From positions 8,618,001-8,682,000 of the forward strand of contig NC_042997.1 in NCBI RefSeq assembly GCF_006345805.1: a stretch of DNA of 64,000 nucleotides, read 5' to 3'. Both the position numbers and the translations under genes were made by a program. How positions within the stretch are numbered: the stretch's first letter is position 1; each line of letters starts with the position of its first letter. A model generated the notes under the pieces. That model did no database searches and had not been told where the DNA came from. It saw nothing but the letters and a program-made list of their open reading frames with translations. Shown here piece after piece: positions 2,858-33,680 of this stretch. This DNA is from Octopus sinensis. Lineage: Eukaryota.

Positions 2858-3170
2858 CATCACCATCATCATCATCATTGTTTAACGTCCATTTTCCATG
2901 CTAGCATGGGTTGGACGGTTCAACTGGGGTCTGGGAAGCCAGTAGGCTGCGCCAGGCCCAGTCTGATTTGGCAGTGTTTCTACAGCTGGATGCCCTTCCT
3001 AATGCCAACCACTCCGTGAGTGTAGTGGGTGCTTTTTACGTGCCACCTGCACAGGTGCCAGATGAGGCTGGTAAACGGCCACGCTCGGATGGTGCTTTTT
3101 ACGTGCCACCGGCATGGGAGCCAGACGAGGCTGGCAACGGCCACAATCGGATGGTGCTTTTTACGTGCCC
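2858..3170 (-). mobile_element. RTE LINE 3'UTR fragment with (GAT)n tail
   Basis: (CAT)n + gtttaacgtcc..ttccatgctagcatgggttggacg...ggatgcccttcctaatgccaacc; matches the 3' end of the RTE at 13286-14618. Confidence 0.85.
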
Positions 3171-10450: not shown

Positions 10451-10620
10451 GGCGCAGGAGTGGCTGTGTGGTAAGTAGCTTGCTAACCAACCTCATGGTT
10501 CCGGGTTCAGTCCCACTGCGTGGCATTTTGGGCAAGTGTCTCTGCTCTAGCCCCGGGCCGACCAATGCCTTGTGAGTGGATTTGGTAGACGGAAACTGAA
10601 AGAAGCCTGTCGTATATATG

Positions 10621-10651
<31 letters not shown>

Positions 10652-10846
10652 GTTTGTGAGTCTGTGTTTGTCCCCCTAGCATTGCTTGACAACCGATGCC
10701 AGTGTGTTTACGTCCCCACCACTTAGCAGTTCGGCATAAGAGACCGATAGAATAAGTACTGGACTTACAAAGAATAAGTCCCGGGTGCTCCAGCATGGCC
10801 ACAGTCAAATGACTGAAACAAGTAAAAGAGTAAAAGAGTAAAGAGT
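10451..10846 (+). mobile_element. SINE family A, young copy
   Basis: CpG-retaining head ggcgcaggagtggctgtgtggtaag; (taaaagag)n tail. Confidence 0.92.
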
Positions 10847-10850
10847 ATAT

Positions 10851-11513
10851 AATTTATAAGTAAGGGCAAAATAAAAAAATTTTCTAATGCCAAAATATGC
10901 CGAAAATAGACAACATCAATAACCATGTAATTTATCACTCGGCATATTTTGGCATTAGAAAATGTTTTTTCTTTTGCCCTTACTTATAAATTGTTTATAA
11001 ATTTAACCTTTAAAGGTATTTTTTAATATGCTGGCCATTGTTAGAATTTTTTTCGAAAAATTTTATCCTACATTTGATGTTAATTTAATAGTATCCGAAT
11101 CGCACGTGTCTCGATATGGGCTGGAGAGTTTCTATTTTGGATATATTTGGGGTACTTAATTGTGCTCATGACTTAGTGCTCGCTTCTTCCATGGGTATAA
11201 GTATTTCACTTATTCCTTTTGCCGCATTTATCACTGATGAAGGGAAGGTTCTTATGAACTAACTCTGAAATCGGGTCCGATATGGTAATAACAGGATTTT
11301 GTAGGAATTTCTATCAGCTTTCTTCGAAATACGTGCTTGTTAGAGATAAATTACATGGTTATTGACGTTGTCTATTTTAGGCATATTTTGGCATTAGAAA
11401 ATTTTTTTCTTTTGCCCTTACTTAATAATTGTTTATAAATTTAACCTTTAAAGGTATTTTTTAATATGCTGGCCATTGATAGAATCTTTTTCGAAAAATT
11501 TAATCCTACATTA
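10851..11513 (+). mobile_element. Non-autonomous Penelope/retrozyme-like element (partial tandem plus inverted arm)
   Basis: 10941-11074 repeats at 11380-11513 (period 439); 10851-10938 is the reverse complement of ~11343-11431; hammerhead motif inside. Confidence 0.7.
11229..11282 (+). ncRNA. Minimal type I hammerhead ribozyme motif (possibly mutated)
   Basis: tatca-CTGATGA(11234-11240)-stem II aggg/ggttc-ttat-gaact/ctct-GAAA(11267-11270)-tcgg-GTC(11275-11277)-cgata; stem I tatc/gata. Confidence 0.65.
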
Positions 11514-11528
11514 GATATATATATATAA

Positions 11529-11829
11529 TCTTTATATATAAAACTGAAGTTGTGTGTGTGTCTGTCTACTCCAATTTAGATTCCTAACTACTCCCACATT
11601 TTGCGGTGCAGTTTAACCAAAAGCGGGTATCTTATAGTCGTGATTCATATCGAGCCCTTCTGGGTATTAGCGCGTGTCTACGATGAGTCTACGATTAAAA
11701 AAAAATTACCATCATCTTTCCGCATTTTTTATGATTTTTGCTCCGTTTATATAAGGGAAGTAACTCTCTAAAAATGCTTATATAGTTATTTCCCTTACAA
11801 ACCCGAGAAACGCCGGGCGTTACTGCTAG
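11529..11829 (+). mobile_element. Non-autonomous Helitron (family H1)
   Basis: Starts A|TCtttatatataaaa; ends with hairpin cccgagaaacgccggg plus CTAG|T; no TSD; second copy at 33287. Confidence 0.85.
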
Positions 11830-13287: not shown

Positions 13288-14618
13288 CTCTATAAGATGT
13301 ACCTAGTGTAAGCTATGGGCACATAAGAGGTGCAGCAATATCAAAGAAAGGCTAACTGAGAAGATAGTTTTTGTATGTGGCAGATGCCCAGAAGCAATAA
13401 ACACTGAAAATGTGCTGAGAACAACTTACGCCACATTCCAGGGAGCAAAACTAGAAGTAGTTGATAGCTTCCATTACCTAGGTGACGAAGTCAGTAGTCG
13501 GGGAGGATGCACTGAAAGTGTAGCTGCTAGAATAAGAATAGCCTGGACAAAGTTCAGAGAGCTCTTACCTCTGCTGGTGACAAAGAGCCTCTCGCTCGGA
13601 ATAAAAGGTAGATTCTATAACCCATGTGTACGAACAGCCATGCTCATGTCAGTGAAACATGAGTCGTGACTGCTGAGGACATGTGTAAGCTCGCAAGAAA
13701 TGAAGCCAGTATGATCTGTTGGATGTGCAATGTCAGTGTGCTTACTCAACAGAGTGTTAGTACCTTGAGAGAAAAGTTGGACCTAAGAAGCATCAGATAT
13801 GGTGTGCAAGAGAGACGACTGCACTGGTATGGCCATGTGGCAAGAATGGATGAGGATAGCTATATGAAAAAGTGAGGGAACCTGTGGAAAAGGTAAACCG
13901 AGGAAGACCTGGGATGAGGTGGTGAAGCATGACCTTTGAATATTAGGCCATGCTGAGGCAATGACTAGTGACTGAGACCTTTGGAAATATGCAGTGTGTG
14001 AGAAGACCCGGCAAGCCAAGTGAGACCATAACCTGTAGCCTATGCCAGGGGTGTAACCAGCCCACTTATGCATACCTTTCCTTCAGTGGACACTAAACTC
14101 TGCTTGTGAAGACCTGTTGAGGCAAGTGAAATCGAAATTGAAATCAAATTCGATGACTGGCATCCGTGCTTGTGGAGTGCTAAGAGCACCATCCAAGCAT
14201 GATTGTTGCCAGGAGCAGCTGACTGACTTCCGTGCCAGTGGCACATAAAAAGCATCATTCGAGCATGATTGTAATCAGCGTTGCCTTACTGGCACTTGTG
14301 CTATTGGCACACGAAAAATCATTTGAGCAAGGTCGTTGCCAGTGCCGCTGGACTGGCTCCTGTGCAGGTGGCACATAAAACGCACCATTTGAGCATGGCT
14401 GTTGCCAGTACCACCTGACTGGCCCTCATGCTGGTGGCACATAAAAGCACCCACTACACTCTCGGAGTGGTTGGCATTAGGAAGGGCATCCAGCTGTAGA
14501 AACTCTGCCAGATCAGATTGGAGTCTGCTGCAGCCATCTGATTCACCAGACTTCAGTCAAATTGTCCAACCCATGCTAGCATAGAAAGCGGACGTTAAAC
14601 GATGATGATGATGATGAT
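13286..14618 (+). mobile_element. 5'-truncated RTE LINE (ORF2 C-terminus, 3'UTR, (GAT)n tail)
   Basis: LEVVDSFHYLGD..AARIRIAWTKFRELLPLL and RRLHWYGHVARM motifs; 3'UTR with ~65-bp subrepeats; tail gttaaacgatgatgatg. Confidence 0.92.
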
Positions 14619-32855: not shown

Positions 32856-33286
32856 TATATATATTATGTATATACACATATACATGTAAAAAACACATAT
32901 ACATTGATTTTATCATATTACTTACACAACACAAGTTCAGGAGAAATATTATTAGCATGACATTGCTTCTATGAAGTTTAAGACATTTGGAGTATTCCCA
33001 CAGGAGTCAAAAATGAAATTAAAAACAAGAGATTTAAATAATCATTTTTGCACATGTTGCTTAAAAAAAGCATAAAGATAAGCATTTCCTTCTTAATCTT
33101 CATATAACATTTCAAAAACATTCAGACAACAGATATTTCAAGAGAAGATAGGATTGGATTACCAGCTGAATGATCTGAAACATGTAACTTGGAGTACTGG
33201 AATTAAGGGCCTATTACATTTAATGTATTAAAGAGTATTCTCTACTTCCATATTAAGTTTTGTAAATTATCACTTCTCAGGATATA

Positions 33287-33680
33287 TCTATATATATAAA
33301 ACTGTAGTTGTGTGAGTGTCTGTCCCCTTCGATTTAGATTCGTAACTACTCCCACATTTTGCAGTGCAGTTTAACCAAAAGCGGGTATCTTATAGTCGTG
33401 ATTCATATCGAGCCCTTCTGGGTATTAGCACACGTCTACGATGAGTCTACGATTTTAAAAATAATTTACCATCATTTTTTTCCATTTTCATGCATATTCT
33501 TTTAAAGGGAAGTACCTCTCTAAAAATGTCTACGATGAGTCAACGATTTAAAAAAAAATTTACCATCATATTTTTTCCATTTTTAATGCAATTTTTTGCT
33601 AATTTTTGGCTATAACTCTCTAAAAATGCTGTATAGTTATTTCCCTTACAAACCCGAGCAACGCCGGGTGATACTGTTAG
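33287..33680 (+). mobile_element. Non-autonomous Helitron (family H1)
   Basis: A|TCtatatatataaaactg..cccgagcaacgccggg..TTAG|T; internal duplication of gtctacgatgagtc..tttaccatcat. Confidence 0.85.

What the first reader, a model, noticed from the sequence alone, without database searches (positions are those of the whole stretch)
10941..11513. 439-nt retrozyme-like unit carrying a minimal hammerhead ribozyme
Seen: an ORF-less 1.3-mer of a 439-bp unit with CTGATGA / 26-nt stem II / GAAA / tcgg / GTC and stem I tatc-gata. Two deviations (A at 11233 opposite C, T at 11271 in stem III) look like CpG-decay changes from tatcg..GAAACCGG. Established: minimal type I hammerheads with a very short palindromic stem III occur in Penelope pseudo-LTRs and metazoan non-LTR retrozymes, cleave as dimers, and can yield circular RNA monomers. 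Inference: a cephalopod family of ribozyme-processed, possibly circular ~439-nt RNAs; I cannot tell whether it has been described. This copy has only one motif and may be inactive.
Basis: partly seen in the sequence, partly recalled or inferred. Interest (0 to 1): 0.75.

Follow-up and report, generated by a model that had tools for sequence, protein, structure and literature searches.

The report
Penelope-pasted retrozyme with intact hammerhead
This is one copy of a roughly 480-base, protein-free jumping repeat with over a thousand copies in this animal genome; it carries an intact hammerhead ribozyme motif predicted to cut at a different site from the one first proposed, and its insertion ends look like those of Penelope-type retrotransposons, whose enzyme likely copies it, possibly from an RNA circle.

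Summary
A11233 and T11271 are family consensus, not CpG decay (99 and 114 of 115 copies). Covariation supports helix I 11228-33/11283-88 and a palindromic 4-bp helix III 11270-73/11278-81. The predicted cut follows A11282 (AUA), not C11277. All 12 core bases are intact here and unchanged across five subfamily consensuses up to 14% apart.

The family unit is 466-479 bp; 439 reflects deletions in this copy. The insertion spans 10851-11516: inverted arm, partial unit, full unit, 73-bp tail. Family copies end at two fixed sites, land in (TA)n, are 5'-truncated and form back-to-back arms, usually one per end site: the Penelope-like (PLE) footprint. Repeats within one locus share 26-33% of variants against 7% between loci, as re-copying of one template predicts.

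Direct dimers are rare (4 seen), with no longer arrays. No autonomous partner was found; cleavage and circles are untested. The scan reported other hammerhead repeats with this footprint on other DNA of this genome. Verdict: new member of a known kind.

The parts
10851..10939 (-). Inverted, 5'-truncated arm (unit positions u378-466), ending at the first fixed end site
   Evidence: carries the same 2-bp deletion as the main unit, a variant seen in 6 of 110 segments
10941..11005 (+). Partial upstream unit (3' end of unit, about u416-479; pseudo-LTR-like)
11006..11443 (+). Full unit, 438 nt here against a 479-nt subfamily consensus (39-, 4- and 2-nt deletions); about 5% diverged
11220..11296 (+). 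Type I hammerhead ribozyme motif, including distal helix I (11222-24 with 11292-94; one pair lost by G11293A)
11228..11233 (+). Helix I 5' strand; pairs with 11283-11288
   Evidence: 97.1% of cells paired; 11233-11283 is A-U in 47 and G-C in 12 of 64
11234..11240 (+). Core C3-A9 (CUGAUGA); N7 at 11238 is the only core position that varies between subfamilies
11241..11266 (+). Helix II: 4 bp, 2x2 AA/AA internal loop, 5 bp, tetraloop
   Evidence: 4 of 9 pairs with changes on both sides
11267..11282 (+). GAAA, palindromic helix III (11270-73 with 11278-81, loop 11274-77) and A17; predicted cut after 11282 (triplet AUA)
   Evidence: 11272-11279 is C-G in 43 and U-A in 14 of 64; hairpin -1.3, intermolecular duplex -15.0 kcal/mol
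11283..11289 (+). Helix I 3' strand and unpaired U1.7 (11289)
   Evidence: T in 113 of 115 copies
11444..11516 (+). Tail (u1-73): sequence between the two fixed end sites, with a 4-bp and a 12-bp hairpin; followed by (AT)n
   Evidence: most conserved part of the unit

Best explanation
It is one insertion of a dispersed, non-coding family of about 480-nt units with an intact type I hammerhead motif, likely mobilised in trans by the reverse transcriptase-endonuclease of a Penelope-like element (PLE). Shown: the family, the ribozyme fold, two fixed 3' end sites about 75-80 nt apart, (TA)n targets, scattered 5' truncation, and back-to-back arms that mostly end one at each site. Inferred: the enzyme nicks both strands of a TA run and starts reverse transcription at two internal sites flanking the conserved tail, one per strand. 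Inferred: it reads through the cleavage site on an uncut or re-joined RNA, sometimes for more than one unit. Inferred: the hammerhead, kept under selection, cuts dimeric transcripts after the AUA triplet, probably through a two-copy helix III, to give unit-length RNA that may circularise and serve as template. I put PLE-type mobilisation at about 0.9, a cleavage-competent ribozyme at about 0.8 and a circular template at about 0.45.
For: Family size: 1,401 exact matches of the 21-nt unit junction and 270 of a core pattern (controls 0 and 6) in G000.

Ribozyme: 93.9% of cells paired and 10 of 22 pairs with double-sided change, 0 of 500 shuffles as high. All 18 helix pairs with letters in every consensus are kept in 5 of 5 subfamily consensuses (the 19th is gapped in one). 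Core changes are 0 of 12, while outside the ribozyme the consensuses differ by 3-14%. 53 of 65 copies not picked by a ribozyme pattern keep all 12 core bases.

Ends: 144 of 203 segments end in the two zones, and 121 of those 144 run into a TA repeat. Of 56 inverted pairs, 25 are end+tail, 2 tail+tail, 1 end+end and 28 have a further-truncated arm (25 of 28, p=2.7e-5). This matches PLE architecture (PMC8557442) and the two in vitro RT start sites that bound the tail in an anole PLE (PMC11167929).

Template: same-locus repeats share 33% (inverted) and 26% (direct) of non-CpG variants, against 7% between loci. The sense strand folds as a circle at z -4.2 to -6.8; sense -125.0 against antisense -73.1 kcal/mol. 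RT plus GIY-YIG PLEs and Hydra-type RT motifs are abundant in G000.
Against: No autonomous partner with shared ends was found among the PLE loci examined. Direct dimers with two full ribozymes are rare: 4 seen (L007, L054, L061, L237), 1 same-strand pair among 95 exact matches, and no array of three or more units. The tail (73-82 nt) is about twice the 30-40 bp described for PLEs. The active fold is not the predicted ground state (probability about 0.001 in a 64-nt fragment; -13.6 against -19.5 kcal/mol). 5' ends do not pile up at the cut site (2 of 203, 3.0 expected), so cleavage leaves no direct trace in the insertions. Outside the ribozyme the predicted rod has little covariation (1 of 125 pairs double-sided, 26 broken). 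Covariation cells count related sequences; most double-sided changes trace to a few subfamily splits. Shared variants could also come from local gene conversion. In the anole PLE, ribozyme mutants still inserted, and 8 of 9 Xenopus retrozyme dimers did not cleave in vitro.
Confidence: 0.75

Rival explanations
1. Same family and enzyme, but the template is always an uncut linear transcript of a genomic partial tandem or dimer. The ribozyme works at another step (release from read-through transcripts, limiting expression) and no circle is used.
For: No 5' pile-up at the cut site. Segments reach 738 nt and two units in L237, never three, as a dimer template would allow. Unprocessed RNA was the main substrate for the anole PLE in vitro.
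Against: Same-locus repeats share private variants 4-5 times more often than other loci, which needs one unit copied twice at some generation, or conversion. The sense-strand circle folds strongly.
Confidence: 0.4
2. The copies are truncated ends (pseudo-LTR plus tail) of an autonomous PLE whose coding part I did not sample, not an independent non-coding element.
For: Only a minority of the family's loci were examined.
Against: In the loci mapped, the sequence upstream of u1 is the unit's own 3' end and the sequence after the tail continues as the unit, so the 480-nt map closes on itself. tblastn of two PLE proteins against 156 loci gave fragments in 4 loci, two of them (L194, L199) not of this family; Hydra-type proteins were not used as queries. 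Longest ATG ORF 47-83 aa. At least four subfamilies keep a 466-479-nt unit.
Confidence: 0.1
3. The hammerhead is a dead relic or a chance motif in an ordinary repeat.
For: No Rfam match. The active fold is not the MFE. No cleavage data exist.
Against: Compensatory changes in all three helices and an invariant core across subfamilies, with variation only at N7. 0 hits in 100 simulated windows.
Confidence: 0.06

Closest known systems
Metazoan non-LTR retrozymes (coral, mussel, axolotl: PMC7229834; vertebrate survey: bioRxiv 10.64898/2026.07.22.740005)
   Same: Non-coding unit of a few hundred bases, low GC (32-34%), type I hammerhead in each unit, self-paired predicted circle, co-occurrence with PLEs, proposed PLE mobilisation.
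   Different: Mostly dispersed, truncated and back-to-back copies in (TA)n with two fixed ends, not long head-to-tail arrays. Unit slightly above the 150-450 bp range of PMC7229834. Circles and cleavage not shown. No sequence link to a PLE pseudo-LTR found.
EN+ Penelope-like elements, (TA)n-targeting Neptune and Hydra clades (PMC8557442); anole Poseidon PAc (PMC11167929)
   Same: Partial tandems, inverted 5'-truncated arm, optional tail at one end, two end sites, AT-rich targets, hammerhead. Hydra-1_oBim is listed with a palindromic 4-bp stem III.
   Different: No ORF. Tail 73-82 nt against 30-40 bp. The whole element is one 480-nt unit.
Minimal PLE hammerheads (PMC4209133)
   Same: Type I topology, palindromic helix III region, extended helix II.
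   Different: Helix I is 6 bp plus a distal stem, helix III is 4 bp, there is no unpaired base between 9 and 10.1, and 10.1-11.1 is A-U in this subfamily. It is closer to the canonical form.

Membership tests
Type I hammerhead ribozyme | Core CUGANGA, GAAA and NUH, conserved | tested here: met
   0 of 12 core changes between 5 consensuses; N7 = A/T/C; triplet AUA
Type I hammerhead ribozyme | Three helices around the core, helix I open-ended | tested here: met
   double-sided changes in helices I, II and III
Type I hammerhead ribozyme | Self-cleavage after N17 | not testable with these tools
   needs in vitro transcription
Minimal PLE hammerhead (PMC4209133) | Helix I of 4-5 bp and little or no helix III | tested here: not met
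   helix I 6 bp, helix III 4 bp
Minimal PLE hammerhead (PMC4209133) | Unpaired base between 9 and 10.1; G10.1-C11.1 | tested here: not met
   11241-11266 is A-U 45, G-C 7, G-U 7, unpaired 5 of 64; G-C only in the divergent subfamily
Minimal PLE hammerhead (PMC4209133) | Palindromic 15.2-16.2 and loop 3 | tested here: met
   12-nt self-complementary segment, duplex -15.0 kcal/mol
Canonical type I hammerhead | Helix I 6 bp, helix II 4 bp, loop 1-loop 2 contact (unpaired U1.7 with the last A of loop 2) | tested here: inconclusive
   Helix sizes met. U11289 and A11262 are each conserved in 113 of 115, matching the contact described in PMC11875169, but loop 2 is an internal loop here and the contact cannot be shown from sequence.
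Non-LTR retrozyme | No protein, GC under 50%, unit of a few hundred bases | tested here: met
Non-LTR retrozyme | [quoted passage not shown] | tested here: met
   Met for the family at 4 loci: L007, L054, L061, L237. Not met for the window copy, which has one motif.
Non-LTR retrozyme | Multimeric tandem arrays as the usual setting | tested here: not met
   no array of three or more units in the loci mapped
Non-LTR retrozyme | Highly self-paired monomer | tested here: met
   64-68% paired, z -4.2 to -6.8, sense over antisense; covariation outside the ribozyme is weak
Non-LTR retrozyme | Expressed as linear and circular monomer RNA | not testable with these tools
   only assembled contigs were served
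Non-LTR retrozyme | Target-site duplication longer than 4 bp, when present | not tested
   flanks are TA runs, which hide duplications
Penelope-like element | Partial tandem, inverted 5'-truncated arm, tail at one end | tested here: met
   the tail is longer than described
Penelope-like element | (TA)n insertion preference (Neptune, Hydra, Naiad) | tested here: met
   121 of 144 fixed ends abut a TA run, against 24 of 203 5' ends
Penelope-like element | RT plus GIY-YIG ORF | tested here: not met
   it can only be non-autonomous
Penelope-like element | Ends homologous to an autonomous PLE | tested here: inconclusive
   none found in 50 GIY-YIG loci and 50 Hydra-motif loci (overlapping sets), out of 5,029 candidates and 1,334 matches

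The most novel reading that the evidence does not exclude
The family is a viroid-like 480-nt RNA circle that a Penelope-type enzyme copies directly. The conserved 73-nt double-hairpin tail is the enzyme's landing pad, both nicked strands of a TA target are primed on the same circle at the two sides of that pad, and read-around gives the mirror-image and more-than-unit insertions. The palindromic helix III lets only dimeric transcripts cut, so the monomer circle is stable.
Probability: 0.3. Interest if true: 0.7.

Novelty: new member of a known kind. Interest (0 to 1): 0.42.

Why it matters
How animal retrozymes are copied into DNA is open. PLE mobilisation was proposed from co-occurrence and from similarity to pseudo-LTRs (PMC7229834; bioRxiv 10.64898/2026.07.22.740005). 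This family shows the PLE insertion footprint directly in a protein-free 480-nt unit. It gives two mapped RT start sites, a short conserved tail that may be the recognition element, and natural dimers for cleavage and circle tests. The corrected register changes the experiment: the cut to look for is after A11282 and the product is about 480 nt. The class itself is known, so the gain is a good test system rather than a new kind of element.

Tried and rejected

CpG decay at 11233 and 11271: rejected.

A conserved inhibitory helix over the cut site (11222-28 with 11279-85), suggested by the MFE: no covariation support, 408 of 500 shuffles as high.

RNAalifold on the 64-row alignment returned no pairs. 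A 5-consensus alifold recovered helices I and II but not III.

Rfam: no hammerhead match at E up to 10 around the finding, nor at gathering score in 10 loci.

Partner search: GIY-YIG loci, Hydra-type RT motif loci and model R1 on 44 held sources gave no PLE with shared ends. L114 and L240/L270 hold family copies beside PLE sequence, but beyond TA runs and other repeats, so I read them as neighbours. A whole-genome search with the RNA model could not be made, so divergent relatives of the ribozyme may be missed.

Expression: no RNA holder listed. Runs guessed to be RNA were contigs only and say nothing on cleavage or circles.

5' pile-up at the cut site: absent.

Literature: 8 searches found no description of this family. 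Lunse et al. (RNA Biol 14:1499) is not held. The supplements of PMC7229834 and of the 2026 preprint could not be read and may list cephalopod motifs. Repbase and Dfam were not available.

Full report
1. What is in the window. Against the family consensus (u1-479) the insertion reads: minus-strand u378-466, then plus-strand u416-479, u1-479 (11006-11443) and u1-73 (11444-11516), then (AT)n. It lies between a SINE-like repeat and another dispersed repeat. No ORF of 110 aa overlaps 10854-11694.

2. The family. The window lies in a 2.72-Gb genome, G000. A 21-nt junction word has 1,401 exact matches (control 0), a 23-nt core word 95 (control 0) and a looser core pattern 270 (control 6). The last includes a few motifs of other families. 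Clustering 115 long copies gave five groups with consensuses of 466-479 nt, 3-14% apart outside the ribozyme; two of the five are near-sisters. Copies lie 1.5-12% from their consensus, median 4.6%, so the family is not very young. This copy is 438 nt because of 39-, 4- and 2-nt deletions. Contigs of runs under three organism labels cover 30 of 30 bins of a family copy, so the family is likely shared by related species; one of these runs may be the source of the assembly. The octopus label comes from earlier notes, not from my calls.

3. The ribozyme register. In 115 non-redundant copies, 11233 is A in 99 and G in 15, and 11271 is T in 114, so neither is decay. The G variant goes with C at 11283, which puts helix I at 11228-33/11283-88. 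Helix III is then 11270-73/11278-81 and the triplet is A11280-U11281-A11282. On a 64-row alignment (64 of the 106 distinct motifs, with many near-identical rows of the window's subfamily and three gapped rows left out), this fold has 93.9% of cells paired. Helices I and III are at 97.1%, and 10 of 22 pairs change on both sides. An independent structure-aware scan picked the same AUA register as the only hit in 64 kb, with 0 hits in 100 simulations of a stricter version. Across consensuses the 12 core bases never change and N7 is A, T or C. 53 of 65 copies chosen without a ribozyme pattern keep all 12; the 115-copy set is biased towards intact cores because selected on them. Related rows inflate the cell counts, and the double-sided changes amount to a handful of events on the tree. 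The window copy departs from its consensus only at G11293A.

4. Monomer or dimer. Helix III is a weak hairpin (-1.3 kcal/mol) but a strong self-duplex (-15.0). PMC4209133 describes this arrangement as favouring dimeric cleavage (parts 1-2 of 4 read). The active fold is not the predicted ground state. U1.7 and the A before the 3' strand of helix II are conserved, as in the contact described in PMC11875169 (passages). This is suggestive only.

5. Insertion anatomy. Of 203 segments, 144 end in two zones (u465-479 and u60-90; BLAST overshoot into TA runs blurs the second) and 121 of those abut a TA run. 5' ends are scattered. Of 56 back-to-back pairs, 25 are end+tail, 2 tail+tail, 1 end+end and 28 have an arm cut short; a few pairs are segmental duplicates. 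The window copy is an end+tail pair. PMC8557442 (passages, section 11, supplement rows) describes partial tandems, inverted arms, a one-sided 30-40-bp tail and (TA)n targeting for PLEs. PMC11167929 (parts 1-2 of 4) shows that the tail lies between two internal RT start sites and that both target strands are extended. The tail here is the most conserved part of the unit: 7 of 73 columns vary, against 85 of 320 in the rest outside the ribozyme (p=0.0013) and 23 of 77 in the ribozyme. It folds into two hairpins in all four consensuses tested. I infer that it is the recognition element.

6. Template. Twenty segments exceed one unit plus tail, 8 span two cut sites, and 5' ends are not enriched at the cut. 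The RT therefore read intact or re-joined RNA. Repeats within a locus share 33% (inverted; 94 pairs) and 26% (direct; 77 pairs) of their non-CpG variants, against 7% for 806 between-locus pairs of the same group. This fits one unit copied more than once from varied source copies, as on a circle. Conversion, or inheritance from a dimer source, is not excluded. The unit folds well as a circle, much better on the sense strand, but covariation outside the ribozyme is thin. Direct dimers with two complete motifs were seen at 4 loci; no longer arrays were seen.

7. Partner. G000 holds PLEs with RT and GIY-YIG domains and 1,334 matches to a Hydra-type RT motif. None of the loci examined shares ends with the unit. 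The sample was small, so the partner is unidentified, not absent.

8. Comparison and novelty. It works like a PLE without its ORF, and it meets the working definition of a non-LTR retrozyme at family level (2026 preprint, parts 1-3 of 5 read; PMC7229834, passages, part 2 of 6 and sections 14 and 17). It lacks the long arrays, and the RNA criteria are untested. It is not a minimal PLE hammerhead. Eight literature searches found no description of it. A 2026 octopus repeat annotation has no mention of hammerheads (passages), and the giant squid genome paper counts 235 Rfam hammerheads (passages). PMC6765202 was seen as passages only. Earlier notes of this scan describe other hammerhead repeats with the same two-armed footprint in this and other genomes.

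9. Verdict. A real and probably functional hammerhead in a PLE-mobilised non-coding repeat; new member of a known kind; interest 0.42.

Noticed in passing
window 10451-10845: SINE-like dispersed repeat with 16 BLAST hits in the window; the element's inverted arm abuts its 3' simple-repeat end. No tRNA called. The SINE label is recalled, not tested.
   Followed up: partly
window 11527-11829: Dispersed repeat with a second copy at 33286-33680; its ends resemble Helentron/DINE-type non-autonomous elements (recalled).
   Followed up: partly
L111 7129 and 7629; L112 1351; L118 6021 and 6416; L084 2621; L089 977; L283; L286: Several other hammerhead families in G000, mostly with 6-nt palindromic helix III segments, some in two-armed non-coding insertions.
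   Followed up: no
L085, L099, L110: Short hammerhead family with a CCGAYGA core (C at position 4) and a 10-bp helix I.
   Followed up: no
L161/L204, L193, L194: Another two-armed family with covarying stem II whose best register gives a U at position 17.
   Followed up: partly
L111-L115, L119, L120: Young PLE family (about 98-99% identical copies) with a 781-aa RT plus GIY-YIG frame and an overlapping upstream frame of up to 479 aa without a Pfam match over cut-off.
   Followed up: partly
L114 1-1653 and 5934-7591: A 1.65-kb direct repeat (99.3%) flanking that PLE contains its 3' end plus downstream DNA, including a copy of this family; it looks like co-duplication of 3' flank.
   Followed up: partly
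L273 5728 and L278 5394 (as oriented): Hammerheads downstream of Hydra-type RT motifs, 37-38 nt before a TA run, cutting after UA like the family studied here.
   Followed up: partly
window 3028-3169 and 14185-14451: Tandem arrays of 63- and 66-bp units; similar words occur beside other loci, suggesting a satellite-like repeat.
   Followed up: no
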